64,000 nucleotides of DNA from Clostridia bacterium (GTDB taxonomy: Bacteria > Bacillota > Clostridia > Oscillospirales > CAG-272), in the NCBI GenBank assembly GCA_017411805.1, contig JAFQPI010000005.1, forward strand, positions 1,538 through 65,537. The letters run 5' to 3'. The notes beneath the pieces are model-generated. The model was given only the letters and a program-made list of their open reading frames with translations, did not search any database and had not been told where the DNA came from. The position numbers and the translations under genes are program-made. Shown one piece after another: positions 1 to 56,064 of the stretch (positions are counted from its first letter, which is position 1; each line of letters starts with the position of its first letter).

Positions 1-56
1 CATCACTGGGCAAAAGCGCACGCCGCTGCCTAAATTTATTTGGAGGTGCCGAAAAA

Positions 57-206
57 ATGAGAGTTAAGATCACTTTAGCGTGCAGTGAATGCAAACAGCG
101 TAATTACGACACGAAGAAGAACAAGAAAAACGATCCTGACAGACTTGAAATGAACAAGTACTGCAGATTCTGTCGTAAACACACTCTGCACAAGGAAACA
201 AAGTAA
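57..206 (+). CDS. rpmG: 50S ribosomal protein L33
   Basis: 49-aa ORF below the ORF-track cutoff, translated by hand: [49 protein letters not shown]. It has the two CxxC pairs typical of L33, a GGAGGT RBS at 42-47, and lies in the conserved rpmG-secE-nusG order. Confidence 0.85.
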
Positions 207-223
207 GGCGGGAGGGAAACAAA

Positions 224-454
224 ATGGCTGAAACAAAAACAAATAAACCCGCAAAGACTCCCTTTAAGGAGAGAGTTGCCAAGTTTTTCCGCGAATATAA
301 GAGCGAGATCAAGAAGATATCCTGGTCAAGCCGTGCACAGACACTTAACAATACGTGGGCTGTACTCGTTGCTTCCGTGGCTATCGCTGTTGTAATTGCA
401 GTAGTCGATCTCGGTGTATCGCGCGGAATCCAGTGGCTCGGAAATCTTATCTGA
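224..454 (+). CDS. secE: preprotein translocase subunit SecE
   Basis: 76 aa with a Lys-rich N-terminus and a single C-terminal TM helix (WAVLVASVAIAVVIAVVDL). Located between rpmG and nusG. Confidence 0.8.
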   Translation: MAETKTNKPAKTPFKERVAKFFREYKSEIKKISWSSRAQTLNNTWAVLVASVAIAVVIAVVDLGVSRGIQWLGNLI

Positions 455-493
455 GTCCGATAGTTAGCGGTATATGATGAAAAAGGTGAGATA

Positions 494-1048
494 ATGGCAT
501 TTATTGACGAATTTTACGATCACAGCGGCGAAGCGAAATGGTACGTCGCACACACATATTCCGGCTATGAAAACAAGGTTAAGACAAACCTTGAAAAAAT
601 CGTGGAAAATCGCGGAATCAGCGATAAGATAGTGGACGTAAAGGTCCCTGTTGAGGTTGTCACCGAAATCAGTGACGGCAAGGAAAAGCAGATCGAAAAC
701 AAGATTTTCCCGAGCTATGTGCTGGTAAAAATGATTATGACGGACGAAACATGGCACGTCGTAAGAAATATCAGCGGTGTTACCGGCTTTGTAGGACCCG
801 GATCCAAGCCTATTCCGCTTACCGATGAGGAGGTTGCGGCGCTCGGTGTTGAAGAAAACACGCCGAAGATCGCAGTAAGCTTCAAGGTTGGCGATGCTGT
901 CGTTATCACGGACGGACCTCTTGAGGGAAGCCGCGGTACTGTACAGGAGATCTCAGAGGATCTTGAAAAGGTTACGGTTCTTGCAAATATGTTCGGACGC
1001 GAAACTCCGTTCGAGCTTGACACAAAGAGTATAAAACTCGCTGAATAA
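494..1048 (+). CDS. nusG: transcription termination/antitermination factor NusG
   Basis: 184 aa. N-terminal KWYVAHTYSGYENKV NGN motif and a C-terminal KOW-like segment (FKVGDAVVITDGPLEGSRGTVQEI). Conserved gene order. Confidence 0.9.
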   Translation: MAFIDEFYDHSGEAKWYVAHTYSGYENKVKTNLEKIVENRGISDKIVDVKVPVEVVTEISDGKEKQIENKIFPSYVLVKMIMTDETWHVVRNISGVTGFVGPGSKPIPLTDEEVAALGVEENTPKIAVSFKVGDAVVITDGPLEGSRGTVQEISEDLEKVTVLANMFGRETPFELDTKSIKLAE

Positions 1049-1153
1049 GGATCCTTATTCAAATTACTACTTTCCGCCCTATAAGGGCACAAAGTGGGAG
1101 GGAGTAAAATTTTTGAGTGCTCCCGACAAATCACCACACGGAGGTAAATAAAA

Positions 1154-1579
1154 ATGGCTAAGAAAATAATGGGCTATATCAAGCTTCAGCTGCCCGCAGG
1201 TAAGGCAACACCCGCTCCCCCGGTAGGTCCGGCTCTCGGTGCGTACGGTGTAGCTATCCCTAACTTCACTAAGGAATTCAACGAAAGAACAAAGAACGAT
1301 ATGGGTCTTATCATCCCTGTAGTTATTACAGTATATGCAGACCGTTCGTTCACATTTATTACAAAGACTCCTCCGGCACCCGTTCTTATCAAGAAGGCTT
1401 GCGGTATCGAAACAGCATCCGCAACACCTAATAAGACCAAGGTTGCCAAGATCACCCGTGAACAGTTAAAGCAGATCGCGACAACAAAGATGGTTGACCT
1501 CAATGCGGCAAACATCGACACAGCTATCAGCATGATCGCAGGTACTGCACGCAGCATGGGCGTAGAAGTTGTAGACTAA
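1154..1579 (+). CDS. rplK: 50S ribosomal protein L11
   Basis: 141 aa. [21 protein letters not shown] is the hallmark L11 N-terminus. GGAGGT RBS upstream. Confidence 0.95.
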
Positions 1580-1596
1580 GAGAGGAGTAGAGAATA

Positions 1597-2283
1597 ATGG
1601 GAAAGAAATATCAGGACAGCATTAAGCTTTTAGAAAAGGCTAAGCTTTATGATCCGGCAGAAGCTCTCGCTCTCGTTTGCCAGACTTCAAAAGCAAAGTT
1701 CGATGAAACAATCGAAATTCACGTAAGACTCGGCGTTGACTCCCGTCACGCAGACCAGCAGGTAAGAGGCGCCGTTGTACTTCCTAACGGTACAGGTAAG
1801 ACTGTAAGAACTCTCGTATTTGCAAGAGGCGATTTTGCAAAGGCAGCAGAGGAAGCAGGAGCTGATTTTGTTGGCGCAGAAGAGTACGTACAGAAGATCC
1901 AGACCGAAAACTGGTTTGACTTCGACCTTATCATCGCAACACCCGATATGATGGGCGTTATCGGCCGTCTCGGTAAGGTTCTCGGTCCTAAGGGACTTAT
2001 GCCTTCCCCCAAGAACGGTACCGTTACTCCCGACGTTGCCCGTGCAGTTAACGAGGCAAAGGCAGGTAAGATCGAGTACCGTCTTGACAAGACCAACATC
2101 ATCCACTGCCCTCTCGGCAAGGTATCCTTCGGCGAGCAGAAGCTCCAGGAGAACTTTGACGCTCTCGTTGGCGCAGTTATCAAGGCTAAGCCCGCTGCTG
2201 CTAAGGGTCAGTACATCAAGAGCTGCGTAATCGCATCCACGATGGGCCCCGGCGTTAAGATCAACCAGGCTAAGCTTGGCTAA
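1597..2283 (+). CDS. rplA: 50S ribosomal protein L1
   Basis: 228 aa with [23 protein letters not shown] and [16 protein letters not shown] motifs. Follows rplK. Confidence 0.95.
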
Positions 2284-2285: not shown

Positions 2286-2313
2286 AAAAAAGACCGCTTC
2301 GGCGGTCTTTTTT
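2286..2313 (+). terminator. intrinsic terminator after rplA
   Basis: AGACCGC-TTCG-GCGGTCT hairpin (2291-2308) followed by a T-run. Confidence 0.8.
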
Positions 2314-2373
2314 AGTGTAAAGTGAAAAGTGTAAAGTGAAAAGTGAAGGTAGCTTTTCGCTTTGGCGAAAAGC
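2314..2373 (+). repeat. heptad-array/hairpin element A
   Basis: AGTG at 2314, 2321, 2328, 2335 and 2342 (strict 7-nt phase: AGTGTAA AGTGAAA AGTGTAA AGTGAAA AGTGAAG), then GTA and the hairpin GCTTTTCGC-TTTG-GCGAAAAGC (2352-2373). Confidence 0.8.
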
Positions 2374-4923: not shown

Positions 4924-6354
4924 TTACGCCGCGAGCTTGAAACAATAGTCACCGTTGAGCTTCATTGAAGCAAGCTCTTCCGCACTTACGTAGATCACAA
5001 CGTTACCCGAAGCGGTGATCTCGATATAGCGAACGTGGGGAAGCAATTCCTTATATACTTCTTGCGAATCGCGATAGAGATTCTTGCGCATAAGCTCGAT
5101 CTCGCCGTTGATAGCAGAGGTGTCGCTATCGAAGAGAGCGGAATCAAAAACGCCGTCCTTCAAATATTTTGCAACAGCATCCTCTCCGCAAAGCTCGATA
5201 GCCGCAGAAACAAGCGATCCGTCCGCAGCCGCAGCCTCAAGCGCGGTGCGCCAAGCGGGACGCTTAGCAGCCTCTCCGAAGAGAGCAACGTATTTGCTTT
5301 CGTATTCGGATCTGTCAAGCATATCACCGAAAACGGCAGGCTCCGCGGTAACGGCAAAGAGGACGTCCTTGCCTTCGTTTGCCGCAATAGCGTCATGAAG
5401 CTTCTTTGATACTATCTTGCCGTTCCATTCGATGCTGCGCTCGATCACGCCCGCATTGATATCATACTTGCCCGCCTTTGAGAACTTCACGCCGCCAAGT
5501 CCCTCAAGCGCCATAAGCTCACCCTCTGTAACAAAGATGATGAAGCGGTTATTATCCTCAATAAACTCGATTCCGAAATCATCAAGCATCTCGCGCACGT
5601 CATCCGCGATATTTCTCCAAAAACCGTTTGTAAAATGCACGCATTCGTCCCAAAGCTCCTCTGCCTTCTTCGACATAGCGTTGATATCGGCGTTGAGAAG
5701 ATCGGTCTCAAGCTCGCCGCTTGCAAAATAACGATAAAGCTCGTCGATCTCGTATCTGTCCTTATACTGCTCGTAGATAGCGTTGATATCAAAATCGCTC
5801 TTGAACTGATCGTAAATTCCGGCAAGCGCCTCGAGATCAGCCATCTCGTATTTTGAGAGCCAATAAGCCGTCTCTCTCTCAATATACTCCTTGCTCATAT
5901 AGAGATTGGGAGATACCGTGACCTCGACAGCCCAAGTGCGGTTCTCATCGTTGCTTGATACCATGCTCTCGTAAAGCTCCTGGTCAAGCTCAAGCTGATT
6001 GACGACGGCATATTTATCGGGAGCTACGTCTGCAAACGCGCTCTCAACCGAATAGTATTCGCCCGAGGTATAAACCGTTCCCGCAGTAAGCTGGGCAGAC
6101 GACGTGACGTTTCTGATGATGACCGCACCCTCGGGAGGCAGGAGCGACTGAGGCTCTCCGTTGCCTCTGAGCGCAAAAGCGGCTGCAACTCCGCCAACCA
6201 GTATAACGACCGCAAGGGTTGCCGCGATCAAAGCTGTCATGAATTTGCGGCGGCTTACACCCACCTTGCCCGCAGTCTTCTTTTCGCCGAGCGCATCTGC
6301 TATGACGTCATCGTCAAGCATACCGAGTATTCTGTTCATTTCTTCCTTTTTCAT
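4924..6354 (-). CDS. membrane-anchored anti-sigma-like protein (partner of ECF sigma 6351..6893)
   Basis: 476 aa. Its start overlaps the sigma stop by 4 nt. Short cytoplasmic N-terminus (ILGMLDDDVIADAL), one TM helix (FMTALIAATLAVVILVGGVAAAF) and a large extracytoplasmic domain. Confidence 0.5.
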   Translation of the reverse strand: MKKEEMNRILGMLDDDVIADALGEKKTAGKVGVSRRKFMTALIAATLAVVILVGGVAAAFALRGNGEPQSLLPPEGAVIIRNVTSSAQLTAGTVYTSGEYYSVESAFADVAPDKYAVVNQLELDQELYESMVSSNDENRTWAVEVTVSPNLYMSKEYIERETAYWLSKYEMADLEALAGIYDQFKSDFDINAIYEQYKDRYEIDELYRYFASGELETDLLNADINAMSKKAEELWDECVHFTNGFWRNIADDVREMLDDFGIEFIEDNNRFIIFVTEGELMALEGLGGVKFSKAGKYDINAGVIERSIEWNGKIVSKKLHDAIAANEGKDVLFAVTAEPAVFGDMLDRSEYESKYVALFGEAAKRPAWRTALEAAAADGSLVSAAIELCGEDAVAKYLKDGVFDSALFDSDTSAINGEIELMRKNLYRDSQEVYKELLPHVRYIEITASGNVVIYVSAEELASMKLNGDYCFKLAA

Positions 6355-6893
6355 AACGTAATACCCTCCTTTTCAAGATATACGCGTAATTTGTTTCTCA
6401 TTCTGAAAAGCATGGATTTGATCTTACCGACCGAAAAGCCCTCCTCTGCCGAGATCCTCTCAAGAGGCTCAAGCGAGAAATAGTGCTTGACGAAGATCCT
6501 TCTCTCCTCCTCCGAGACGGCTCTAAGGAATTCGGATATCAGCTTCGCAAGCTCCTCTGCCGAATGATCCGCCGTCTCACCGACGATCTCCGCGAGCTCC
6601 TCCGCGGGAAGCAGGACGGCTGAACGCTTTTGAGCGTTCATATACTCCAGCCTGCGAAGCGCGTGGTTTCGCACGATCTTGGTGATATATGCGGGAAGGC
6701 TCTGCGGCTTTTTTGGCGGTATCGAATGCCACAGCGAAAGATAAGTGTCATTCTCACATTCCTCGACGTCAAGGTCGTTTTCCAAGATATTGTGCGCAAT
6801 CCTACGGCAGAGCGCTCCGTATTTCGCCGAGGTCTCTTCTATTGCCGCTTCGTCACGGGCAAAGAAAAGCTCAATTATCCTCTTATCTTCCAA
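6351..6893 (-). CDS. ECF-type sigma-70 family RNA polymerase sigma factor
   Basis: 180 aa with region 2 (DVEECENDTYLSLWHSIP) and region 4 (ISAEEGFSVGKIKSMLFRMRNKL). The start is TTG at 6891-6893, preceded by AAAGGA. Paralogous to 17239..17790 and 42557..43105. Confidence 0.8.
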   Translation of the reverse strand: MEDKRIIELFFARDEAAIEETSAKYGALCRRIAHNILENDLDVEECENDTYLSLWHSIPPKKPQSLPAYITKIVRNHALRRLEYMNAQKRSAVLLPAEELAEIVGETADHSAEELAKLISEFLRAVSEEERRIFVKHYFSLEPLERISAEEGFSVGKIKSMLFRMRNKLRVYLEKEGITL

Positions 6894-15646: not shown

Positions 15647-15652
15647 AACAAT

Positions 15653-15747
15653 CCGCCAAAGGCGGAGTTAATGTTGCGCAAAGCGCAAGTTAATATCGCG
15701 CGATGCGCGAGTTAATGTTCGCCCGATGGGCGAAGTTAAAGGTTAAT
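15653..15747 (+). repeat. heptad/hairpin element E: tandem array of four hairpin units sharing an AGTTAAT linker
   Basis: TCCGCC-AAA-GGCGG AGTTAAT | GTTGCGC-AAA-GCGCA AGTTAAT | ATCGCGC-GAT-GCGCG AGTTAAT | GTTCGCCC-GAT-GGGCGA AGTTAAA GGTTAA. AGTT at 15667, 15689, 15711 and 15735 (period 22-24). Stem sequences differ but pairing is kept. Confidence 0.8.
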
Positions 15748-15782
15748 TTCCGAGCCGAAAGGCTCGGAAATTTTCATTTTTA
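15748..15782 (+). terminator. intrinsic terminator (terminal hairpin of element E)
   Basis: TTTCCGAGCC-GAAA-GGCTCGGAAA followed by TTTTCATTTTT. Confidence 0.75.
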
Positions 15783-16116
15783 TTGAAGCGGAAAAGTTTT
15801 CGTCCACCTTTTTCAAAAGGTGGCAGAGCTCGAGACAGAGTCTCGTCTTAATGCAAAAGCTTCAGCTTTTGCTACTGTGCTTCAAAATTCTGAAGCTCCG
15901 CTTCTGAATTTTGGATAGAGTCAATCCTTCCCGAATGTAGGGAAGGATTGCGCTCTATCACCCCCCACCCTGCACCCGTCTCGCTGCGGCTCGGTCACGC
16001 CGCGGGTCTGACGGTCCCCCGGACCGTCATTCAATACCGCGTCGCCGCTTCGCTACCCGTAAACCGGGGAGATTGCGCGCGGGTCACTTTCCGCCGCGTG
16101 CTTGATTATCGGATTC

Positions 16117-16150: not shown

Positions 16151-17242
16151 TTATTCCGGCGCAACCTCGTTTGCGGGCGCACTTGTTGTGGCTTCGACAA
16201 GACCGTCTGTGACGGTGCTGTCGGGGTTGATAACCGTGACGAGCTCGGTATTGGCCTTGAATATCTCACAAAGCTCGCTCGTTGCCTCGCCGCCGACATT
16301 GAAGAATATGATCCCATCGCAGATCGGACCGCCGATCGCGATATATCCGTTGTCGAAAACATAAAGGAAATTCATCATCTTGCCCGCCGACGCCATTGAG
16401 AAGGTCACGCGGCGTATCTCGCCGCATCTGTTCATTCTGCCGTCAACGGCATCGTAGGGGTGAACGACCTCCGCCTCTCCGTTGAGGGTAAGCAGGAATT
16501 TTACGATATCCGATCCACCTTCGGTGACGCGGTATTTATCAATTTTCTTGCTGTTAAAGCGCGGATATTCGGTAACGAGCGCGTCCTTTCCGATATCCAT
16601 ATGCAGAGCGGCATTGAAATCCGAGAAGAAGTTTTGCAAGGTTGAAAACTTATATTCGGTGTTCAGCGCGGCGTAGTAATGCTCGGTGGTCTTTGCCGTA
16701 CCCTTTTCGAGATACTTCACCGCGACTGCCGCGTCGGTTGAAACGCCTCGGATCTCGTAAACCTCGGCTCCCACGGTCACAACGTCGCGCTCGGTGTCGT
16801 TATAATGCACATACCACCCCGTTCTGACCTTGATCTCATCGAGCTTTTCGCCAATAAACTCGCCGCTTTTGTCGAGCGGTAATGCGTTTCCGAGATCATA
16901 CTTTGCATATTTTTTGGTTTCGATCTCGGCGAAGGAAGATTCTACAAGAACAGCCATTCCCCCTTCAGTCACTCCGCTGCCCGTGTTCGGATTGAACAGA
17001 TCAAAAACGTTGCTCCAGACAATAGCGTCTCCGACTATATTTTCATCGGTATCATCGGGTTCGTTTCCGTCACCGATCAGCATCGGTAAGCCTATGACGA
17101 GTCCCGTGATCATCAAGGCAAACGCCGCCGCGATCGCCGCGATCTTAAGTATCGGTCTTCTTTTTACGGTCACTACCCTGTCGGCGCGCTCGATCAGATC
17201 CGCGTCGATATTTCCCATTGCATCAAAAAAAACATTTTTCAT
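16151..17242 (-). CDS. membrane-anchored anti-sigma-like protein (partner of sigma 17239..17790)
   Basis: 363 aa from MKNVFFDAMGNIDADLIERA. ATGA overlap with the sigma stop. TM helix ILKIAAIAAAFALMITGLVIGL. The track start at 17392 would run through the sigma gene. Confidence 0.5.
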   Translation of the reverse strand: MKNVFFDAMGNIDADLIERADRVVTVKRRPILKIAAIAAAFALMITGLVIGLPMLIGDGNEPDDTDENIVGDAIVWSNVFDLFNPNTGSGVTEGGMAVLVESSFAEIETKKYAKYDLGNALPLDKSGEFIGEKLDEIKVRTGWYVHYNDTERDVVTVGAEVYEIRGVSTDAAVAVKYLEKGTAKTTEHYYAALNTEYKFSTLQNFFSDFNAALHMDIGKDALVTEYPRFNSKKIDKYRVTEGGSDIVKFLLTLNGEAEVVHPYDAVDGRMNRCGEIRRVTFSMASAGKMMNFLYVFDNGYIAIGGPICDGIIFFNVGGEATSELCEIFKANTELVTVINPDSTVTDGLVEATTSAPANEVAPE

Positions 17243-17790
17243 AGTGTGTAGCCTCCTTTTCTGAGTGCTTCTTTTAGCTTTTTTCTGGTTCTTGAAAGAA
17301 TGACGAGGACGTTTGCCTCCCTCAAGCCAAATCTGCGCGCGATCTCGGCTGTGCTGTCGCAGTAGAAATAGCGGCGCACGAAGATATCGCATTCGCGCTC
17401 GGGGAGCAAACGAAGGAAATCATTCAAAAGCCTTGAGAGTTCGCCCTTTTCGAACTCGTCGGATGTATCTGCAAGAAACTCCTCGGCTTCCTCGAGACAG
17501 AGTGAAACCTCGCAACCGCCTCTCTTTTCGGCGGTCATTTTTCTGTATCTGTCAAGCGAGAGGTTGCGAGTAACCGTCCCAAGATACACTTTCAGCAACT
17601 TCGGCTCCTCGGGTGGGATAGTGTTCCACGCGCGCAGGAGCGTGTCGTTAAAAACTTCATCCGCATCCTCGTCGCTATCGAGGATGTTTTTTGCTATCGC
17701 CCTGCAATATTTTCCGTACGCCGCCTCGCTCTCGCGCAAAGCACGCTCGTCGCGGGCGAAAAACAGCTCGATTATTCTTTCGTCGTCCAT
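17239..17790 (-). CDS. ECF-type sigma-70 family RNA polymerase sigma factor
   Basis: 183 aa. MDDERIIELFFARDERAL... Paralog of 6351..6893, with regions 2 and 4 recognisable. AAAGGAG RBS. Confidence 0.8.
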   Translation of the reverse strand: MDDERIIELFFARDERALRESEAAYGKYCRAIAKNILDSDEDADEVFNDTLLRAWNTIPPEEPKLLKVYLGTVTRNLSLDRYRKMTAEKRGGCEVSLCLEEAEEFLADTSDEFEKGELSRLLNDFLRLLPERECDIFVRRYFYCDSTAEIARRFGLREANVLVILSRTRKKLKEALRKGGYTL

Positions 17791-17868
17791 GTCATTCTCC
17801 TTTATCTTCCTGATGGCGCCTCACACTATAAGACGTATTTTTATTCGTTTTCTAACATATAATTCGAA

Positions 17869-17927
17869 AATTTCCGCTGCGCGGAAATTCTCCTTAACTT
17901 TCCACTTTACACTTTACACTTTACACT
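17869..17927 (-). repeat. heptad-array/hairpin element B
   Basis: Minus strand reads AGTGTAA AGTGTAA AGTGTAA AGTGGAA AGTTAAG GAG, then the hairpin AATTTCCGC-GCA-GCGGAAATT. CACT lies on the plus strand at 17903, 17910, 17917 and 17924. Confidence 0.8.
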
Positions 17928-17960
17928 TAAAAAGACCCATCGTCGACGATGGGTCTTTTT
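17928..17960 (-). terminator. intrinsic terminator after 17963..18403
   Basis: AGACCCATCGTCGACGATGGGTCT palindrome flanked by A- and T-runs. Confidence 0.8.
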
Positions 17961-17962
17961 AA

Positions 17963-18600: not shown

Positions 18601-18709
18601 TGTTCAGTCGCGCTAAATTTATATATTATATATCTCTTTAATTAAATTGTCTTTATTTAATATATTATATATTTTTATCGTTAAACAATTCGCGAAAGGC
18701 AAAGGAAAA

Positions 18710-21700
18710 ATGAAGAAACAGAAAAAAACCAAGATCCTGTCAGCTATGCTTGCAATGCTGTTGCTGACAACAATGATCGTCGGAGTCTGCGTTAATTCCG
18801 CCGGCGACGCCGCCGCGGAAGCTTACATCGGCCTCTTCGACGGAAAGGTCTTCAACGACATATCGAAATACTTCTCGAATGCCGTTGTGGCACTTCCCGA
18901 CAAGGTCAAGGACGACCAGATCATCTCACTCATCATTGAATGCGACGCAGAAAGTCTGCTTGACGCATACGAGGCGTCCGACAAAACGATGAGTATCTCC
19001 GAGTTTGCGCTCTCCGATGAAGCCGCAGCTCTCCGCGAGAACATCTCGAAGGAGAACGCAAAGCTTATCGAAAAGCTCAACCGCGCCGGCTACACCTATG
19101 AGCTCGGAGTTAATTACGACACAGTCATCGCCGGATTTGAGCTTCTCATCACCGCGCGTGATTTTGAGGACGTATGCAAAACTCTCGGAAGAAAGACCAA
19201 CGTCATCGTAGGCGACGTCTACGAAAAAACCGAGACTCAGCTGGTCGAGAACACCGTAAACGTTCAGGACACCGGTATCTTCAACAGCATCGGTTGCGGA
19301 TACGACGGCTCGGGTACAGTTGTTGCGGTCCTCGATACCGGTCTTGACTATTATCACACCGCCTTCTCGACCGACAATTTCACGTCGAATACGCTCGGTA
19401 TGACCTTTGACGACGTCAAGGGCTTCATCGGAGATACCGTGGCATCCGACAAGCAGTCGGGTCTGACCGCCTCCGATGTTTACATAAGCGAGAAGGTACC
19501 CTACGGATTTGACTACGCTGACGGCGATGCCGACGTATTCCCCATCCAGAGCGACCACGGCACGCACGTTGCCGGCGTTATCGCGGGTAAGGACGACGTT
19601 ATCACGGGTGTTGCGCCCAACGCGCAGCTCGCCATCATGAAGATCTTCTCGGATATCGTTGATACCGCGCGTACCTCCTGGATACTTGCGGCACTTGAGG
19701 ACTGCGTAGTTCTCGAGGTTGACGTTATCAACATGTCGATCGGTACCTCCGCGGGCTTCTCGCGTGAGAATGACAAAGAGCAGATCACCGGCGTTTACGA
19801 CCGTATCCGCGCTCTCGGAATCAGCATGGTAGTTGCGGCTTCCAACAGCTTCACCTCAACCTACGGCTCCGAGAAAAACGGTAACCTCGGTCTGACCTCC
19901 AACCCCGATAACGGTACCGTCGGATCTCCCTCTACGTATAAGGGCGCGCTCTCGGTTGCATCCATCAACGGCGCAAAGACCCCCTATATGCTCTACGGCG
20001 ACACCATTATCTACTATATTGAAGCTACCGACCGCGTTTCCGAGGAAAAAGAATTCGTTGCCGACCTATTGCCGGACGGAACGAATGAGGCGGAATACGA
20101 ATTCGTCACCATTCCCGGTGCGGGACGCTCCGCCGACTATACAGGCATCGACGTCAAGGGCAAGATAGTCCTTGTCAGCCGCGGATCGACCACCTTCGAG
20201 GAAAAGGCGATCGTAGCCGAGCAAAAGGGCGCGGCAGGTATCATCATCTACAACAACGTAGCCGGTGATATCAAGATGACCGTCGGCGACGCGAAGCTCG
20301 CGGTATGCTCGATAAGCCAGGACGAGGGCGAAATGCTCGCAGCCGCAGGCACGGGAACTATCAAGATCTCCAAGAGCCAGACCTCGGGTCCCTTCATGTC
20401 CGACTTCTCCTCCTGGGGTCCCTCCCCCGACCTCGAGATCAAGCCCGAGATCACCGCGCACGGCGGAATGATCCTCTCCTCGGTACCCGGTCAGGACTAT
20501 GACCGAATCTCGGGTACCTCGATGGCATGCCCCAACGTATCGGGTCTCGTTGCCATCCTCCGTCAGTACGTCCGCGAGAACTTCCCCGCGATATCTGATA
20601 ACAACATCGAGATCGCAGCTACGGTCAACCGCCTCCTGATGTCCACCGCCGATATCGTAAAGAACAAGAACGGTCTGCCCTACGCTGTCAGAAAGCAGGG
20701 CGCGGGTCTTGCAAATCTTACCAACGCTATCGCAACGGATGCCTACATTCTTACATATGACCGCCGCGACGGCTCCATCATGGACAAGTCCAAGATCGAG
20801 CTCGGCGACGACCCCGCAAAGAACGGCGTATACACTCTCAAATTCTCTGTTTATAATTTCGGTTCTTCTTCTCTTTCCTATGATATATCTGCATGTGTAA
20901 TGACCGAGGGTATCAGCGATACCAAGACGAATGACGGTGAATACACCGTAAACGAGCAGGGATACCTCCTCGAAAACGGCACGACCGTCGAGATCACAAA
21001 CGTATCGAACGGCACTCTCTCGGGCACCAATCTCACGGTTGCCGCAGGCGCGACAGCCGACGTTACGGTAACCGTCACCATCTCGGATGCCGATAAGGAA
21101 TATCTGAACAGATTTGAAAACGGCATGTACGTTGAGGGCTTTGTTAAGCTGACCGCTACCTCGGGTACAGAGGTTAGCCTCTCCGCTCCCTTCCTTGCCT
21201 TCTACGGCGACTGGACGGTAGCTCCCCTCTTCGACATCGACTACTTTGAAACCAACGCAGACGAGATCGACGATTCCATCGACCTCGCCGACAAGACTCT
21301 TCCCGATGCGTACGCGACCCGCCCCGTCGGCTCGCTCTACGACGACTACGTATCCTTCCTCGGCGGATACTACTTCGAGCAGGATCCCTCCTCGAAGCTC
21401 ATTGCCGCAGACCGTAAATATATCTCTATCTCGAACGTCGAAGGCACCGTCCACTCGCTTGAATACGTCTGGGGCGGACTTCTCAGAAGTGCCGAGCGCA
21501 TCGAGATCACCATCACGAACGACGCTACGGGCGAGGTTGTCTTCTCGAAGACCGAATACGACGTCCGTAAGTCCTACGGCGACGGCGGATCGATCTACCC
21601 CGCAAATATCAAGGTAGGCTTCGACGCCATCGACGAGGAGCTTGAAAACAACTCGAAGTTCACCTGCCTAATCAAGGGCTACCTTGATTACGGAGACGGC

Positions 21701-24700
21701 GGCGAGGCAAAGAACCTCAACAACACCTTCGAATTCCCCATCTACGTCGATTTCCAGGCTCCCGCCGTAACCGACGTTGAGTTCTACACCGAGTACGACC
21801 GCTCGGAGGAAAAGACCCGCCTCTTCGCAAAGGTTGCCGTCTACGACAACCACTATTCGATGGGCGCACAGTTCGGATACGTTGCAAACGAAGGTGAAAA
21901 CGGCTTCGTATTCCACGCATTCGACAAGTACATCACCTCGATCTACTCGGATTACAACTCCACCTCCTACGTTGTATACGAGCTGACCGATTACGTTCAG
22001 CGCATCAAGGAAAACGCAAGTAACAGAAATACCTTCACTGTCGTAACCTACGACTATGCGCTCAACACCGCAACCTACGAGATCTCGCTTCCCGACGAGT
22101 ACGTTGACATGTACTTTGAGGAGGAGAGCATTAAGCTCAGCCCCAACGAGACCTACGAGCTCAAGCCCATCCTCTACCCCGGAAGCGAATGGAGCGAGCT
22201 GCTTGAGTACTACTCGACCAACATGAACGTTGCAAGAGTTGTGGGCAACAGAATAATTGCTATCGAGCCCGGCGTTACCAGAATCGTAGCGCGCGACCCG
22301 GTAACCAAGAAGACGGCGCATCTCTCACTGACCGTCCTCGGCGAGGGCGAGGAGGGCTATCAGAAATTCGATAAGCCCGTTACGGACAATTTCGTCCTCA
22401 CCGGTTTCTATACCAACAAGGCATATTACCAGCTTGATGCCACCGAGCGCGATATCGGAAGCACGGGCGACGAGATGAAGTTCGTCGGCGAGAATTATTT
22501 CCTCTCGCTCTTCCCCTCCGAATCGGTAACGCTCCGCTATATCTTCGACGCTTACTTCCCCGATGAATATACGGTTCAGTTCGAATCGAGCAACGAAAAC
22601 ATCGTAACCGTTGATGAGCACGGACAGATCACGGCAGCCAACGAGGGCTTTGCCTCGATCTCTGTCAACGTAATGCGCATCGAAAAGGTAACGGGCGAGA
22701 ACGGCAAGACCGAAAACGTCTACCATTCCACCTATTACTCCAAGTCGATCTCGGTTGAGGTCAAGGAGCCCTGGATCACCTCGGGTCCCTCGCTCTCGCA
22801 CTACTTCGGACTTGGCGGCACGGTAACCTTCCCCTCCACCCTCGCGGTAACCGAGATCGGTCAGTTCGCATTCTCGAACTTCGACTACATCCCCAAGACA
22901 GAGGACGACGAGATCTCCGAGGAGGTCCCCGAGACCACCAAGATGTGGTACCTCGGCGACGACACCATCACCAAGGTCGTAGTTCCCGAGGGCGTTGAAA
23001 AGATCGGTCGCTTCGCGTTCGCAAATCTGACCGCGCTCCAGGAGGTCGTTCTTCCCTCCACTCTCAAGATCATTGACTACGGAGCATTCTACGGATGTAC
23101 CTCGCTTGTAACCGTTTCCGGCATCGAGCACGTCAAGTTCATCAACGAGGCAGCATTCTTCGGATGCAACCTTTCGGGCGCACTTGAGCTTACCGAGGCA
23201 GTTGCTCTCGGCGAATACGCCTTTGCAAACAACAAGAACCTCAAGAACCTCACCCTCTCCGAAAAGACCAAGTCTGTTGCCTCCTACGCCTTCAGCGGAT
23301 GCGAAACTCTCAAGAAGGTCAACATCGAGGCTGACAAGATCAAGCTCGGTCTGAGCGTATTCTCGGGATGCAAGGCTCTTACCGAGATCTCCGTCAACGC
23401 CGCGGTTATCCCCGCGGGAAGCTTCTCTGACTGTACCAAGCTCAAGAAGGTGACCATCGGCGCGGACGTTGCCGTAATCGGCGAATACGCATTCAAGAAC
23501 ACCTCGGTCGAATCCTTCACGGTCGCTGAAGGCAACGCGACCTTCAAGCCCCAGAACGGCAAGCCCTACCTCCTCTCTGAGGACGGCAAGACCATCCTCC
23601 TCTGCGCTCCCACGGCAGAGACGCTTGAGCTCCCCGCATCGGTTACAACGGTCGGCGACGGTGCTTTTTCGGGCAACCCGAACCTTATCTCCGTCAAGAT
23701 GCCCGGCGTTACCAAGCTCGGCAACTACGCTTTCGCTGATTGCGAAGCTCTCGCAAGCGTTGAGTTCGGCAAGCTGACACACATCGGCGACTACGCCTTC
23801 TCGAACACCGTACTCACCGCAACTCCCGCGCTCGGCTCGGTAAGCTACATCGGCGCGAATGCATTCAGAAATACCCTCATCACATCGGTTGAGATCGCAA
23901 ACTCCACCGAGATCGGTAATAACGCCTTCCGCGGCTGTGAAAAGCTTGAAAGCGTCAAGATCGGCAACAACGTAACGATCGGCAGCTACGCATTTGCCCT
24001 TGATATGACCGACAACTGGACCTACGGCTACTACAGACTCCCGGACAACAACCGCGTTTATTACTACATTTATACCTCGCCCCTCCATTCGCTCACGATC
24101 GGCGAGAACGTCAAGATCGGCAGAGGCGCATTCCACGGCGCATCCGAGCTTACCTCGGTCACCCTCGGAAAGAACGCGGAGATCGGAGACCACGCATTCT
24201 ACAATGCCTCCATGCTCAAGGATATCGATCTCTCGAAGGTCGTCTCCATCGGTGAGCTTGCCTTCTCGGGCGACGAGACCTATGAATACGTGGACAGCAG
24301 CTTCTCCCTCATCGCTACCGATGAGAACGGCCTCTACCGCCGCCATTACCACACTCCCCTGCTTGAGAGCATCGATCTCTCCTCCGCGGAAAAGATCGGC
24401 ATGGGCGCATTCTCCTACGTCACAACTCTCAGATCGGTAAAGCTCGGCTCCAAGCTTACGGAGATCGCGGATGCCGCATTCTATAAGGCAACCGCGCTTA
24501 CCGACATCAGCTTTGCGGGAATCGAAAAGATCGGTGAGAGCGCATTCGGCGAGACAGCTCTCAAGTCGCTTGACCTCTCGAAGGTCAAGGAGATCGGCGA
24601 AAGCGCGTTCGCATACGTCGAGGCCCTCGAGTCTGTGATCTTTGCGGACGGCGTTAAGATCGGCAAGGGCGCGTTCGGCTACACGACAAAGCTTACAAAG

Positions 24701-38140: not shown

Positions 38141-38147
38141 GCCCAAT

Positions 38148-38181
38148 GCCCAACTTCCTATGAGGAAGTTGGGCAATTTTA
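38148..38181 (+). terminator. intrinsic terminator after the DAK2 gene
   Basis: GCCCAACTTCC-TATGA-GGAAGTTGGGC followed by AATTTTA. Confidence 0.75.
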
Positions 38182-38250
38182 TTCGCTTTACGCGGTGATA
38201 TTCGGCTAACACCGAGTGATATTTGCTCCGCAAGCTTTGGTGGCTAACAA
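38182..38250 (+). repeat. short hairpin/linker repeat, possible degenerate relative of element E
   Basis: CGC-TTTA-CGCG GTGATATT CGG-CTAACA-CCG AGTGATATT; GTGATATT at 38196 and 38216 (20-nt period); GGCTAAC at 38204 and 38241. Confidence 0.4.
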
Positions 38251-39854: not shown

Positions 39855-39865
39855 TCAATATAATA

Positions 39866-39907
39866 GGGGCTGATTCATTAACTTGAGTGATTCAGTCCCC
39901 TTTTTTG
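39866..39907 (+). terminator. intrinsic terminator
   Basis: GGGGCTGATTCA ... TGATTCAGTCCCC imperfect hairpin followed by TTTTTT. Confidence 0.7.
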
Positions 39908-39969
39908 ATGTCCTTGACATCCTCATCCACCGCGCCTCCGCCCGAAGTATTTGCTTAGAAATAAAAAAA

Positions 39970-40298
39970 GCGCGATCGCGTTCTCCTTCCACCACACGTT
40001 CGTGTGGTCCCCCTCCCTCCCGGAGGGAGGCTTAATGGTAACTGCAAACTACTTCGAATATTCAATGAACATCGTTTTTCTTAATCTAAAAAAGCAAATA
40101 GGAAAATTTTATTTGAATAAATTTGCACTAATAACAGAGTTTTTGCAAATCTTTTGAATAAAACATTCCTATTTAAATATGCAAAATTACAGATACAAAC
40201 GATATTCGATGTACAAACAATTGAATTTGCACAAACTCTTAGCCTCCCTCCGGGAGGGAGGGGGACCGACGCAGGTCGGTGGAAGGAGCCCGCGATCG
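39970..40298. repeat. 330-bp palindromic MITE-like element with ~62-bp terminal inverted repeats
   Basis: The reverse complement of the left arm 39970-40035 aligns with the right arm 40239-40298: identical AGCCTCCCTCCGGGAGGGAGGGGGACC, then a variable but structure-preserving hairpin (CCACACG-AA-CGTGTGG vs CCGAC-GCAG-GTCGG), then identical TGGAAGGAG..CGCGATCG. The core is AT-rich and has no credible ORF. Confidence 0.7.
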
Positions 40299-40419
40299 AA
40301 CCTCTATGTATTTTACGCGCAAGCTTTGGGCAGAGAGTGATGGCTTGCGTTTTTGAAAACTTTTTCAATAAAACATTCCTGTTTGATATTTGATGATTTA
40401 TTCGAGATCTTCACATAGT

Positions 40420-40460
40420 TAAAGGGCTGATCCATTGATTTGTTAATGAATCAGCCCCTA
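40420..40460 (-). terminator. probable terminator of sigma/anti-sigma pair 3
   Basis: GGGCTGATCCATT ... AATGAATCAGCCC imperfect hairpin with a short T-run on the minus strand. Confidence 0.5.
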
Positions 40461-40499
40461 TCCGCTATAAGGCGGCAACTATCTCTTTTACCGTTTCTG

Positions 40500-42560: not shown

Positions 42561-43105
42561 AATTCAATTCCCTCCTTATGTAGGTGTTCTCTCAGCTTTT
42601 GGCGCGTTCGGAAAAGGAGCATGGTGACCGCGCTTTCCTTCAAGCCGTGGCGTTCGGCAATTTCCGCGACGGGACAAGTGTAGAAGTATCTCTGAAGAAA
42701 GATTATGCGCGATCTTCGGTCAAGCGAGCGCAAAAAGCTATCGAGAGCCATCCGCAGCGCCATAGCGTCGCACATCTCGCCCTCTCCGTCAGATACACAT
42801 TCGCCAAGCTCGTCAAGCGCGATCTCGTGCTCGCATCTCTTGCCCGCCATCTTCAGATTATAGCGGTTTATCGCAAGATTGCGGCAGATCGTGGCAAGAT
42901 AACCCTTAAGCGATGCGGGTCTTTCGGGCGGGATCGAATTCCACGCGCGGAGATAGGTATCGTTTTCGATCTCCTCGCAGTCGCATTCGTCCTCAAGCAC
43001 GCGAAAAGCTATATACCGCAGATATTTGCCGTACTTTCTCTCACTTTCCTCAATGGCTGCCTCGGAGCGCTCCCAAAACAGCTCGATTATTCTCTTGTCT
43101 TCCAT
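42557..43105 (-). CDS. ECF-type sigma-70 family RNA polymerase sigma factor
   Basis: 182 aa. MEDKRIIELFWERSEAAIEE... Third paralog. AAAGGAG RBS. Confidence 0.8.
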   Translation of the reverse strand: MEDKRIIELFWERSEAAIEESERKYGKYLRYIAFRVLEDECDCEEIENDTYLRAWNSIPPERPASLKGYLATICRNLAINRYNLKMAGKRCEHEIALDELGECVSDGEGEMCDAMALRMALDSFLRSLDRRSRIIFLQRYFYTCPVAEIAERHGLKESAVTMLLFRTRQKLREHLHKEGIEL

Positions 43106-55805: not shown

Positions 55806-55869
55806 AGTGGCTAGTGGCTAGTGACTAGTGACTAGTGAATGGTAATTTTCCTCACGATGTTCGGAAAAT
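55806..55869 (+). repeat. heptad-array/hairpin element C
   Basis: AGTG at 55806, 55813, 55820, 55827 and 55834 (AGTGGCT x2, AGTGACT x2, AGTGAAT), then GGTA and the hairpin ATTTTCC-TCACGATGTTC-GGAAAAT (55845-55869). Confidence 0.85.
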
Positions 55870-55934
55870 ATTCCTATTGATAATTCAATTCGGTGTTGAT
55901 ATACCAATGTTGAGTAAAATAATTCAATATCACA

Positions 55935-55982
55935 AAAATCTCGGATATTATGAAGTTTATGCTCCATAATATCCGAGTTTTT
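55935..55982. terminator. bidirectional intrinsic terminator between amidase and trxB
   Basis: CTCGGATATTATG ... CATAATATCCGAG (55940-55977) flanked by AAAAA and TTTTTT. Confidence 0.8.
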
Positions 55983-55991
55983 TATAAAAAC

Positions 55992-56064
55992 AATTTTCGA
56001 ACGAAGTGAGAAAATTTCTACCTTCCACTAGCCACTAGTCACTAGCCACTAGCCACTAGTCACT
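55992..56064 (-). repeat. heptad-array/hairpin element D (inverted partner of C)
   Basis: Minus strand reads AGTGACT AGTGGCT AGTGGCT AGTGACT AGTGGCT AGTGGAA GGTAGA, then the hairpin AATTTTC-TCACTTCGTTC-GAAAATT. CACT lies on the plus strand at 56026, 56033, 56040, 56047, 56054 and 56061. Confidence 0.85.

What the first reader, a model, noticed from the sequence alone, without database searches (positions are those of the whole stretch)
2314..2373. Modular 3'-flank repeat family: (AGTKNNN)n heptads + AAGG junction + TTTCC/GGAAA hairpin (element A; family definition)
Directly after the rplA terminator the plus strand reads AGTGTAA AGTGAAA AGTGTAA AGTGAAA AGTGAAG GTA, then the hairpin GCTTTTCGC-TTTG-GCGAAAAGC.

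The same architecture recurs four more times in 64 kb. Each copy is oriented like the gene that ends just upstream:
- 17927-17869 (-): AGTGTAA x3, AGTGGAA, AGTTAAG, GAG + AATTTCCGC-GCA-GCGGAAATT.
- 55806-55869 (+): AGTGGCT x2, AGTGACT x2, AGTGAAT, GGTA + ATTTTCC-N11-GGAAAAT.
- 56064-55992 (-): five AGTG(A/G)CT heptads, AGTGGAA, GGTAGA + AATTTTC-N11-GAAAATT.
- 15667-15771 (+): AGTTAAT x3, each separated by a 15-nt hairpin, then AGTTAAA GGTTAA + TTTCCGAGCC-GAAA-GGCTCGGAAA.

The constant parts are AGTK in a strict phase, a purine-rich AAGG/AATGG junction, and a terminal hairpin built from TTTCC/GGAAA. The variable parts are the 3 nt filling each heptad and the copy number (4-6).

I do not recognise this as a named family (REP/BIME, BOX, RUP or CRISPR). 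Every heptad boundary creates an NAG triplet at 7-nt spacing, and it is UAG in elements C and D. That is the geometry bound by HutP-type multimeric RNA-binding proteins (UAG-N4 repeats). A 3'-UTR protein-binding array is therefore one hypothesis. Slippage-prone DNA or a non-autonomous mobile element are alternatives.
Basis: seen in the sequence. Interest (0 to 1): 0.7.

Follow-up and report, generated by a model that had tools for sequence, protein, structure and literature searches.

The report
Heptad-repeat palindromic elements, IVS-like
The repeats are real: they are gene-less copies of a little-studied selfish-looking element whose ends are arrays of 7-base repeats, and whose complete form carries a small four-helix-bundle gene like the one in ribosomal-RNA intervening sequences, which may help explain the long-puzzling heptanucleotide repeats of many bacteria.

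Summary
All five elements are at the stated coordinates, and a 4-heptad AGTK pattern gives 9 hits against 0 in shuffles.

The HutP-type 3'-UTR reading is not supported. C and D are the two arms of one ~260-nt palindrome that folds at -126 kcal/mol (z = -18.5). Two more copies in the same genome (F/G) use AATGCWA heptads, so they lack AGTK and NAG, and F is antisense to both of its neighbours.

The family is lineage-specific: six contiguous arrays in ~72 kb, against about one in 0.94 Mb of related Clostridia.

The same convergent heptad arrays flank, or lie directly beside, four-helix-bundle genes (S23p / PF05635 / TIGR02436, Avd-like). This holds in 4 of 4 sampled Clostridial homologue groups, 11 of 13 plasmid loci across four phyla, and the published Coxiella 23S rRNA intervening sequence (IVS).

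The hairpin-interleaved form (element E) has the architecture of the orphan Rfam motif Gut-1, but does not reach its score threshold.

Best reading: these are ORF-less, IVS-like heptad-array elements. How they work is inferred, not shown: arm pairing, RNase III processing and terminator insulation.

Side finding: the window contig is chimeric inside rplA.

The parts
2287..2313 (+). rplA intrinsic (bidirectional-looking) terminator, A-run/hairpin/T-run, directly abutting array A
2314..2348 (+). Element A heptad array: AGTGTAA AGTGAAA AGTGTAA AGTGAAA AGTGAAG
   Evidence: identical in 7 same-organism contigs
2349..2373 (+). Element A junction (GTA, completing AAGGTAG) and hairpin GCTTTTCGC-TTTG-GCGAAAAGC (2352-2373)
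17893..17927 (-). Element B heptad array: AGTGTAA x3, AGTGGAA, AGTTAAG; preceded by the terminator of the Big_1-like gene (17929-17962)
17868..17892 (-). Element B junction GGAG and hairpin AATTTCCGC-GCA-GCGGAAATT
55806..55869 (+). Left arm (C) of one palindromic element: 5 AGTGRCT/AGTGAAT heptads, GGTAA junction, ATTTTCC-TCACGATGTTC-GGAAAAT module
55934..55984 (.). Central A-run/long hairpin/T-run (bidirectional terminator-like; stem 55940-55977) of the C/D element; loop region conserved with the F/G element (TAATGGAGCAWAARCTTCAWAAYATC)
55992..56064 (-). Right arm (D) of the same palindromic element: 6 heptads, GGTAGA junction, AATTTTC-TCACTTCGTTC-GAAAATT module; pairs with arm C over ~34 bp plus the modules
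15652..15744 (+). Element E forward arm: four GC hairpins (15652-66, 15674-88, 15696-710, 15718-34) joined by 7-nt linkers GTTAATG/GTTAATA, then GTTAAAGGTT
15745..15772 (+). Element E terminal hairpin AATTTCCGAGCC-GAAA-GGCTCGGAAATT followed by a T-rich tail (terminator-like)
15804..15896 (+). Second arm of E (E'): four more perfect hairpins separated by 6-7-nt linkers (CAGAGCT, TCTTAAT, TACTGT); the linkers are not complementary to those of E
38182..38233 (+). Weak sixth copy (H): three small hairpins with (G)TGATAT linkers, directly after the terminator hairpin 38149-38173 of the fakA-like gene; sub-threshold Gut-1 hit at 38144-38227

Best explanation
The window holds gene-less (ORF-less) members of a lineage-expanded family of heptad-array palindromic elements.

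A complete element of this kind has three parts: a purine/G-rich array of 7-nt units (either contiguous, or as 7-nt linkers between small GC hairpins), a small gene for a four-helix-bundle protein (S23p / PF05635 / TIGR02436, a paralogue of the DGR protein Avd), and the complementary array. This is the anatomy of the S23p-bearing intervening sequences (IVS) of 23S rRNA.

In the window copies the gene is absent:
- C/D and E/E' are arm pairs around a central terminator-like hairpin.
- A, B and H are single forward arms sitting between a gene's terminator and the next promoter.

What is shown:
- the anatomy;
- the arm-to-arm pairing potential;
- the lineage-specific expansion;
- the tight and taxonomically broad association of such arrays with the four-helix-bundle gene;
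- the fixed polarity, with the G-rich arm first.

What is inferred:
- When a paired copy is transcribed, the arms form a 30-60-bp duplex that RNase III cleaves, as demonstrated for rRNA IVSs. The A-run/hairpin/T-run centre would act as a bidirectional terminator. Such copies would then be tolerated, or mildly useful, as 3'-end insulators between genes.
- The 7-nt register reflects either recognition by the element's own four-helix-bundle protein or replication slippage that expands and contracts the arms by whole units.
- The solo arms are half-elements or decayed copies.
For: 1. C/D folds as one hairpin: -125.8 kcal/mol (z = -18.5) on the - strand and -120.1 (z = -16) on the + strand. F/G gives -115 kcal/mol, z = -10.3.

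2. C/D and F/G share the junction, the module, the loop TCRC-N4-YTC and a central-hairpin core.

3. Gene-bearing counterparts exist. In L040, L031, L109 and L012, heptad arrays flank or abut a TIGR02436 gene. In the L040 transcript the two arrays pair around the ORF.

4. In the window's own organism, a four-helix-bundle gene 9.4 kb upstream of element A is flanked by (hairpin + ATGATGA)n and (hairpin + TCATCAT)n. This is the E architecture.

5. Independent samples agree. All four homologue groups, chosen without looking at their flanks, have such arrays beside the gene. So do 11 of 13 plasmid loci from Cyanobacteriota, Gemmatimonadota, Pseudomonadota and Bacteroidota.

6. Polarity is consistent. 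The purine/G-rich arm lies upstream of the gene in every informative case. In ORF-less pairs from many phyla, the partner array lies downstream 21 times and upstream once.

7. The published Coxiella IVS has an S23p ORF, 2-3 strain-variable GACAGAT heptamers, a 28-bp terminal inverted-repeat stem, and an RNase III cut at the first repeat.

8. The expansion is lineage-specific. There are 6 contiguous arrays in ~72 kb, against about 1 in 0.94 Mb of Clostridia with 64-77% RecA identity. No array follows rplA in relatives.

9. Gut-1 seed sequences show the same pairs with a central terminator.
Against: - There is no four-helix-bundle gene inside the window.
- The interior of C/D has no detectable similarity to that family. 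'ORF-less derivative' is therefore an inference from shared anatomy, not from homology.
- A, B and H lie just downstream of intrinsic terminators, so they may be little transcribed. That weakens an RNA-level role for them.
- No target-site duplication or empty site was found. The copies are highly diverged from one another.
- The gene-bearing copy in this lineage sits at a conserved syntenic position (mfd - X - gene - thiamine transporter) across species with 59-76% protein identity. It has therefore not moved recently.
- All the same-organism contigs are one clone (99.95% identical or more), so array stability is uninformative.
- The association with the gene is correlative. RNase III cleavage and protein binding are untested.
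- Most array-bearing loci from other phyla (116 of 120) have no such gene within 8 kb.
Confidence: 0.6

Rival explanations
1. These are plain long simple-sequence repeats. On this view, heptanucleotide arrays arise and drift by polymerase slippage in a slippage-prone lineage, and have no identity as elements and no function.
For: Heptanucleotide units are the commonest long SSR class in many prokaryotes, and slippage was the explanation proposed (Mrazek 2007, as summarised in PMC4679880). Unit number changes by whole 22-nt units between L232/L235 (7 units) and L233 (4 units), which encode an identical protein. In Coxiella the repeat count varies between strains. Arrays occur sporadically across phyla.
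Against: Slippage alone does not explain several features:
- the conserved junction and hairpin module shared by seven copies whose heptads differ;
- the near-exclusive convergent pairing, 21:1;
- arms that keep complementarity beyond the repeats;
- the narrow copy number of 4-6;
- the tight association with one gene family.
Confidence: 0.15
2. The arrays work at the DNA level, as protein-binding sites. They would be cooperative operator- or centromere-like sites, as with the omega repressor of pSM19035 binding WATCACW heptads. The binding protein could be the four-helix-bundle protein or a ribbon-helix-helix protein, and the arrays would act on neighbouring promoters or on chromosome structure.
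For: Three contiguous heptads (21 bp) and the hairpin-interleaved period (22 bp) both equal about two helical turns. Several linkers (GTGATAA, GTGATAT, TTATCAC) resemble the omega heptad; that resemblance is recalled from my own knowledge and was not tested here. Array F abuts a perfect TTGACA-17-TATAAT promoter of pth. Arrays A and B lie 51 and 39 bp upstream of predicted -35 boxes. A, B and H lie after terminators, where DNA-level roles are more plausible. Within the Clostridial gene subfamily the linker stays RTKATRW while the hairpin sequences change.
Against: Heptad sequences differ greatly between arrays in one genome (AGTGTAA, AGTGRCT, AATGCWA, GTTAATR), which does not fit a single sequence-specific binder. 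The distances to promoters are not constant. The hairpins covary to keep pairing, which points to a single-stranded form. No binding data exist for any S23p-family protein.
Confidence: 0.12
3. The elements are conventional MITEs: non-autonomous transposons whose heptad-array terminal inverted repeats are recognised by a transposase encoded elsewhere in the genome.
For: C/D and F/G have inverted termini and conserved internal features. The family is expanded in one lineage. Assemblies break at the arrays. Most homologous four-helix-bundle genes sit on very short contigs.
Against: No target-site duplication is visible at C/D or F/G. Copies share only short motifs, not the near-identity typical of active MITEs. 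No transposase is present in the window or in the L121 flank. The arm sequences differ between copies, which a single transposase would not tolerate.
Confidence: 0.08
4. One reading: single-stranded 3'-UTR arrays of NAG-N4 triplets bound by a HutP-type multimeric RNA-binding protein.
For: In the window, all five copies point the same way as the gene that ends upstream.
Against: - A and B have AAG rather than UAG at heptad boundaries, and F/G have AAA.
- F is antisense to both of its neighbours.
- C and D pair with each other, so they are not single-stranded.
- A, B and H follow terminators.
- No hut genes or HutP-family protein were seen among the window proteins that were scanned or annotated.
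Confidence: 0.02

Closest known systems
S23p-bearing intervening sequences (IVS) of 23S rRNA (Coxiella burnetii, Leptospira; PMC4990558)
   Same: Both have terminal inverted repeats that pair into a long stem. Both have tandem heptamer repeats in the 5' arm, with a strain-variable unit number. The complete forms carry a four-helix-bundle (S23p, PF05635) ORF between the arms. Folding energies are of the same order: -143 kcal/mol for the Coxiella IVS, against -126 and -115 here.
   Different: The window copies are not in rRNA; they lie between protein-coding genes. They carry no ORF and have a terminator-like hairpin at the centre instead. Their arms are built almost wholly of heptads plus a junction/hairpin module. 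RNase III excision is demonstrated only for the rRNA IVSs.
Rfam RF01706 Gut-1 RNA motif (Weinberg et al. 2010, PMC2864571)
   Same: Gut-1 is three small hairpins separated by a conserved 7-nt linker (RUGAAAU). That is the architecture of element E, of copy H, and of the arrays beside the Clostridial four-helix-bundle genes. The seed sequences, read with their flanks, are convergent pairs after a stop codon and terminator. One seed pairs a hairpin-type arm with a contiguous-heptad arm.
   Different: Scores are below the gathering threshold of 50 bits: 26.3 bits at window 38144-38227, no hit at all for E, and 25-39 bits beside the related genes. Gut-1 was described as a candidate sRNA known only from human-gut metagenomes. 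The text I read gives no link to a palindromic element or to a gene.
Genome-wide heptanucleotide repeat families: Xanthomonas GGGAATC and Nostoc GGGGAYT (PMC4692102), Beggiatoaceae TAACTGA (PMC4679880), cyanobacterial STRR and 'long SSRs' (Mrazek 2007)
   Same: All are intergenic arrays of 7-nt units, abundant in some lineages and absent in relatives. The preferred copy number is about 4. Many occur as convergent inverted pairs (70-75 pairs in Xanthomonas). They sit near stop codons or upstream of ORFs on the antisense strand, and their function is unknown.
   Different: Those families use one dominant heptad per genome. Here several heptads coexist, together with a shared junction/hairpin module and a hairpin-interleaved variant. 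None of those papers connects the repeats with the four-helix-bundle gene.
REP/BIME and MITE-type intergenic palindromes
   Same: These are also short palindromic units at gene 3' ends, sometimes in alternating arrays with short conserved linkers. They are multi-copy and lineage-specific, and REPs are thought to affect mRNA 3' ends.
   Different: No RAYT or other transposase was seen, and no target duplication. The arms here are tandem 7-mers rather than a single imperfect palindrome, and the copies are far more diverged from one another.

Membership tests
Heptanucleotide long simple-sequence-repeat families (LSSR / STRR-like) | Tandem head-to-tail 7-nt units, at least 4 copies, far beyond chance | tested here: met
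   TRF period-7 arrays of 4.6-5.7 copies. The pattern gives 9 hits against 0 in shuffles.
Heptanucleotide long simple-sequence-repeat families (LSSR / STRR-like) | Intergenic location and lineage-specific over-representation | tested here: met
   All copies are intergenic. There are 6 arrays in ~72 kb, against about 1 in 0.94 Mb of related Clostridia.
Heptanucleotide long simple-sequence-repeat families (LSSR / STRR-like) | Frequent convergent inverted pairs (as in Xanthomonas) | tested here: met
   C/D and F/G are convergent pairs. Across phyla the partner array lies downstream 21 times and upstream once.
S23p-type intervening sequence (IVS) | Terminal inverted repeats that pair into a long stem | tested here: met
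   C/D folds at -125.8 kcal/mol (z = -18.5) with about 34 consecutive arm pairs. F/G gives z = -10.3. This is not met by the solo arms A, B and H.
S23p-type intervening sequence (IVS) | Four-helix-bundle (PF05635/TIGR02436) ORF between the arms | tested here: not met
   No family member is found in six-frame ORFs of the window. The C/D central ORF has no Pfam hit. The feature is met in L121 (same organism), L040, L031 and 11 of 13 plasmid loci.
S23p-type intervening sequence (IVS) | Insertion within a 23S rRNA helix | tested here: not met
   All copies lie between protein-coding genes, and the window has no rRNA.
S23p-type intervening sequence (IVS) | Excision by RNase III | not testable with these tools
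   This needs RNA end-mapping or an in vitro cleavage assay.
Rfam RF01706 Gut-1 RNA | Covariance-model score at or above the gathering threshold (50 bits) | tested here: not met
   26.3 bits at window 38144-38227. Element E has no hit even at E <= 10.
Rfam RF01706 Gut-1 RNA | Three or more small hairpins separated by a conserved 7-nt linker | tested here: met
   E has four hairpins with GTTAATR linkers. H has three hairpins with (G)TGATAT linkers. The model consensus is shown.
HutP-type binding site | UAG triplets spaced by 4 nt on single-stranded leader RNA, with a hutP gene present | tested here: not met
   UAG occurs only in C/D. A and B have AAG, and F/G have AAA. C/D are base-paired. No hut context was found.
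MITE | Terminal inverted repeats flanked by a target-site duplication, with near-identical copies | tested here: not met
   Inverted termini are present. However, no duplication is visible at C/D or F/G, and the copies share only motifs.
REP/BIME | Associated RAYT (Y1 transposase) and a conserved 5' tetranucleotide + palindrome unit | tested here: inconclusive
   GTAG precedes the hairpin in A, D and F only. No Y1 transposase was found among the window or flank genes annotated. The whole genome was not available.

The most novel reading that the evidence does not exclude
The heptanucleotide repeat families scattered through bacterial genomes (cyanobacterial STRR, Xanthomonas GGGAATC, Beggiatoaceae TAACTGA, Mrazek's long SSRs and the orphan Gut-1 motif) may all be the termini and gene-less derivatives of one widespread class of selfish element. 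That element would be built around the Avd-like four-helix-bundle protein. The protein would read the 7-nt register of its own arrays, on RNA or single-stranded DNA, and would drive their maintenance or spread. RNase III processing of the paired arms would make insertions harmless, even inside rRNA and inside operons such as cas6-cas4.
Probability: 0.3. Interest if true: 0.85.

Novelty: new variant of a known kind. Interest (0 to 1): 0.6.

Why it matters
Heptanucleotide tandem repeats have been catalogued in bacteria since 1990 without an accepted origin or function. The four-helix-bundle 'S23p' family is one of the commoner proteins of unknown function, and its only characterised relative is the DGR accessory protein Avd.

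This work ties the two together. Arrays sit next to the gene in 4 of 4 Clostridial groups and in 11 of 13 plasmid loci across four phyla. The published Coxiella IVS shows the same combination, and in one organism gene-less copies occur alongside a gene-bearing one.

Two descriptive puzzles thereby become one testable model. The model also re-reads the orphan Rfam motif Gut-1 as one arm of a palindromic element, not as a free-standing sRNA.

On the practical side, these arrays break short-read assemblies, and they need to be recognised during annotation.

Tried and rejected
1. **Rfam.** At gathering thresholds nothing matched in the window. The permissive scan gave only a weak Gut-1 hit at 38144 and spurious miRNA hits.

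2. **HutP/TRAP-type reading.** Rejected on the F/G copies and on the arm pairing.

3. **Hypervariability between strains.** All same-organism contigs (L121-128, L138-150) proved to be one clone and carry identical arrays, so this test is uninformative.

4. **Conservation at the rplA 3' flank.** Relatives have the terminator but no array, and synteny is broken there, so no empty-site comparison was possible. The identity ranking of those relatives was also distorted by the chimeric L1 protein.

5. **RecA-anchored metagenome scan.** It returned only relatives at 64-77% identity. That was useful as a background census but too distant for an orthologous C/D site. I could not check synteny there because the scripting machine was lost.

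6. **Target-site duplications** at C/D and F/G: none seen.

7. **Small ORFs in the central regions.** The shared 'ME(H/Q)KL(H/Q)NI' reading reflects DNA conservation of the hairpin. It has no Pfam match.

8. **CodY box, RBS-plus-start-codon and sRNA-promoter readings** of the junction and hairpin: considered by eye and dropped for lack of spacing or start codons.

9. **Gene-context statistics in the Gut-1 Stockholm file:** not held there.
Full report
**1. The observation**

- Element A reads AGTGTAA AGTGAAA AGTGTAA AGTGAAA AGTGAAG GTA, followed by GCTTTTCGC-TTTG-GCGAAAAGC. It starts immediately after the rplA terminator.
- B, C, D and E are as stated.
- A four-heptad AGTK pattern occurs 9 times, against 0.00 in 100 dinucleotide-preserving shuffles. 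The three-heptad version occurs 13 times, against 0.01.
- TRF finds the four contiguous arrays and the period-22 array of E.
- Flanking genes are rplA and a TMEM164-like gene (A); a small Big_1-like gene and an ECF sigma factor gene (B); an amidase gene and a thioredoxin-reductase-like gene (C, D); and a Fer4/thioredoxin gene (E).

**2. Corrections to the anatomy**

C and D are convergent and 190 nt apart. Folded as one strand, window 55800-56070 forms a single giant hairpin:

- ΔG is -125.8 kcal/mol (z = -18.5) on the - strand and -120.1 (z = -16) on the + strand.
- About 34 consecutive pairs form between the heptad arms.
- The 'module hairpins' and their loops pair arm to arm.
- A long hairpin flanked by an A-run and a T-run sits at the centre.

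Contigs of the same organism extend upstream of the window and hold two more modules, F and G (L121 6259-6320 and 6594-6530). They have the same junction and hairpin (GAGGTAG-CTTTTC...GAAAAG; AAGGG-AAATTTCC...GGAAATT), but their heptads are AATGCAA/AAGGCAA/AATGCTA.

- F/G is again a convergent pair around a central A-run/hairpin/T-run. It folds as one hairpin (-115 kcal/mol, z = -10.3).
- Its central hairpin shares the core TAATGGAGCAWAARCTTCAWAAYATC with C/D.
- It lies between two genes on the same strand, so F is antisense to both.
- The outer edge of F abuts a perfect TTGACA-17-TATAAT promoter for pth.

It follows that AGTK and the NAG triplets are not defining features, and that the orientation rule is not general.

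E also has a second arm: four more perfect hairpins with 6-7-nt linkers at 15804-15896. A weak further copy (H, ~38182-38233) follows the terminator of the fakA-like gene.

A, B and H share one layout: stop codon, intrinsic terminator, forward array, next promoter.

**3. Distribution**

The organism is an uncultured Oscillospiraceae/Clostridia bacterium from ruminant gut metagenomes.

- Related Clostridia with 64-77% RecA identity (80 loci, 0.94 Mb) contain about one genuine heptad array. This genome has six in roughly 72 kb.
- Relatives have the rplA terminator but no array after it.
- All same-organism contigs are one clone (99.95% identical or more) and carry identical arrays, which says nothing about variability.
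- Short-read (Logan) contigs end at the arrays.
The 120 loci it returned span Planctomycetota, Acidobacteriota, Cyanobacteriota, Chloroflexota, Bacteroidota, Clostridia and others.
- Among the intergenic arrays in those loci, an inverted partner array lies downstream in 21 cases and upstream in 1. Orientation relative to genes is only weakly biased.

**4. What the arrays belong to**

In L040 (a Ruminococcus MAG), (AGTGGTT)n and (AACCACT)n bracket a 122-aa gene. Its product is a clear TIGR02436/PF05635 four-helix-bundle protein, with 139 bits against TIGR02436 and a weak match to the DGR protein Avd. In the transcript, the two arrays pair around the ORF.

- L031, L109 and L012 show the same gene beside heptad arrays.
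- In the window's own organism the gene lies 9.4 kb upstream of element A. It is flanked by (GC hairpin + ATGATGA)x4 upstream and (GC hairpin + TCATCAT)x3 downstream, which is the architecture of E.

I then ran two independent tests.

*(a) Homologues of that protein.* They were chosen by identity and contig length only: L231, L232-236, L237-246, and L247 from the isolate Sporobacter termitidis DSM 10068. All carry hairpin + 7-nt-linker arrays in inverted orientation next to the gene. L232 and L235 have seven units where L233 has four, although the protein is identical, so arrays change by whole 22-nt units.

*(b) The plasmid collection.* A tblastn search found 39 records, mostly Nostocales. 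Of the 13 loci I inspected, 11 have inverted arrays of 7-nt units (8-nt in two cases) flanking or immediately beside the gene.

| Organism | Repeat unit |
|---|---|
| Anabaena | AGGTGAC |
| Pseudanabaena | TTAGCTT |
| Geminocystis | AAAAGGG |
| Leptolyngbya | GGGGAGA-like |
| Stanieria | GCAGAAG |
| Nostoc punctiforme | GTCAGGA |
| Calothrix | TTAGCTG |
| Azospirillum | AGAGGAC |
| Riemerella | GGTTTAA |
| Gemmatirosa | GGAGGGCA (8-mer) |
| Picosynechococcus | GGAGATAA (8-mer) |

The two exceptions encode the same Nostoc PCC 7120 protein. In every informative case the purine/G-rich arm is upstream of the gene on its sense strand. That is the same polarity as in the gene-less pairs.

**5. What is already known**

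- **Coxiella IVS.** The 23S rRNA intervening sequence of Coxiella is a 428-nt element. It has a 28-bp terminal inverted-repeat stem, an S23p ORF, and two or three strain-variable GACAGAT heptamers upstream of the ORF. RNase III cleaves at the start of the first repeat (PMC4990558).
- **The protein family.** PF05635 proteins are Avd-like (PMC10053308). The solved homologues 2GSC and 2RLD each have five chains.
- **Heptamer repeat families.** These have been described in Xanthomonas and Nostoc. Xanthomonas has about 186 sites per genome, 70-75 convergent pairs and a preferred length of four units; most are transcribed and the function is unknown (PMC4692102). They have also been described in Beggiatoaceae (PMC4679880). 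The latter paper summarises Mrazek's finding that heptanucleotide units dominate long SSRs.
- **Gut-1.** Rfam RF01706 is three hairpins separated by RUGAAAU. It was reported as a candidate sRNA seen only in human-gut metagenomes (PMC2864571).
  - Arrays beside the Clostridial genes score 25-39 bits against it, where the threshold is 50. Window 38144-38227 scores 26.3 bits, and E scores nothing.
  - Its seed sequences, read with their flanks, are convergent pairs after a stop codon and terminator.
  - One seed pairs a hairpin-type arm with an arm of contiguous heptads across a central terminator. That is independent support for grouping E with A-D.
- **Prior links.** I found no paper in the searchable library that links the gene family to tandem-repeat arrays, apart from the Coxiella case. 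The library is incomplete, so this is not proof of novelty.

**6. Mechanism**

The following are shown:

- the palindromic anatomy and its folding potential;
- the shared junction/hairpin module;
- the fixed arm polarity;
- the lineage-specific expansion;
- unit-number variation in a related array;
- the gene association.

The following are inferred:

- Paired copies, when transcribed, give a long duplex that RNase III cleaves, as in the rRNA IVSs.
- Their centre acts as a bidirectional terminator, so they survive at gene 3' ends as neutral or mildly useful insulators.
- The purine-rich GG junction corresponds to the Shine-Dalgarno region that follows the 5' arm in gene-bearing copies. Compare GAGAGGTGA in L040, GGAGG in L121 and AAGGAG in Riemerella.
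- Solo arms are half or decayed elements.

One hint points to an RNA form. All three non-Watson-Crick positions in the central stems of C/D and F/G are G·U-compatible on the same relative strand, read. The - strand of C/D also folds 5.7 kcal/mol better than the + strand.

Against an RNA role for A, B and H: they lie after terminators.

A DNA-level role, as protein-binding arrays with two-turn periodicity near promoters, remains open and is listed as a rival explanation.

**7. Verdict**

The finding is real and more structured than a simple repeat. The proposed HutP-like function is not supported. The elements are best filed as a new, multi-flavoured variant of the known but unexplained heptanucleotide-repeat families. 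They relate to S23p-type IVS elements by shared anatomy, and to the Gut-1 motif by architecture without meeting its score threshold.

The wider inference, that these families in general derive from four-helix-bundle elements, is the most novel reading that the evidence allows. I give it a probability of about 0.3.

**Limits**

- The whole genome was not available.
- The genome-collection scan was biased to AGTG heptads and was capped at 120 loci.
- The scripting machine was lost, so later counts rest on the built-in tools and on direct reading of sequence.

Noticed in passing
window 1-1980 (joint at 1948-1979, inside rplA): The window contig is chimeric or recombinant. Positions 1 to ~1947 are 95.5% identical to L129, a different Oscillospiraceae species, and only ~78% identical to L121. 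A 32-33-nt stretch is identical in all three. From ~1980 onward the window equals L121 at 100%. This is the typical signature of a k-mer assembly joint in a conserved gene. The secE-nusG-rplK part therefore belongs to another organism than elements A-E.
   Followed up: yes
window 39970-40300 (within the intergenic region 39855-40499): Another large nested palindrome, without heptads. It has 27-nt perfectly complementary arms (GGTCCCCCTCCCTCCCGGAGGGAGGCT) 208 nt apart, further arm hairpins, an AT-rich interior with a 36-nt direct repeat, and the two neighbouring genes' terminators as an outer 20-nt inverted pair. It gave a spurious 49.5-bit hit to the plant MIR7533 model.
   Followed up: partly
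L248 (Anabaena sp. 90 pANA02), L249 (Pseudanabaena galeata), L257 (Picosynechococcus PCC 7003): The four-helix-bundle gene, with its flanking repeat arrays, is wedged inside CRISPR-Cas operons: between cas6 and cas4 in two loci, and between cas10/cmr2 and cmr3 in the third. In Anabaena the cas6-to-gene spacer is a ~300-nt run of CAGGTGA/CAGGGAA heptads.
   Followed up: partly
L232/L235 versus L233, upstream of the four-helix-bundle gene: Contigs encoding the identical protein differ by exactly three 22-nt hairpin + linker units (7 against 4 units). This is direct evidence that these arrays expand and contract by whole units between strains.
   Followed up: yes
one search hit list; Logan contigs L123, L125, L126, L142, L149, L150: Most homologues of the four-helix-bundle protein sit on contigs of only 0.5-2 kb, and short-read contigs of the window organism end at the heptad arrays. 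These repeats systematically break metagenome assemblies.
   Followed up: no
L011 6299-6367 (rumen MAG RUG10619): Two different heptad arrays, (AGTGATT/AGTGGCT)x6 then (AATGTYG)x4, fill the whole spacer between the recA stop codon (which lies inside the first heptad) and the start codon of the next gene. In the window the corresponding genes (recA, recX) overlap.
   Followed up: no
window 43594-44060, inside ORF 43315-45429: There are 3.3-3.8 tandem copies of a 123-nt (41-aa, Cys-containing) repeat in a BspA-type leucine-rich-repeat protein. The gene follows an ECF sigma factor gene (42557-43105) that is read divergently.
   Followed up: no
window 6351-6893, 17239-17790, 42557-43105: Three ECF-type sigma-70 genes lie within 64 kb. 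Each is next to large genes of unknown function or for surface proteins, including a 2425-aa S8 protease/LRR protein at 18647-25924.
   Followed up: no
L231 2994-3094, L232 2968-3068: A bona fide TPP riboswitch (70-76 bits) lies just downstream of the 3' array of the four-helix-bundle gene and upstream of a YuaJ-type thiamine transporter gene. In these species the element therefore sits between the mfd region and a riboswitch-controlled gene, at a conserved syntenic position.
   Followed up: no
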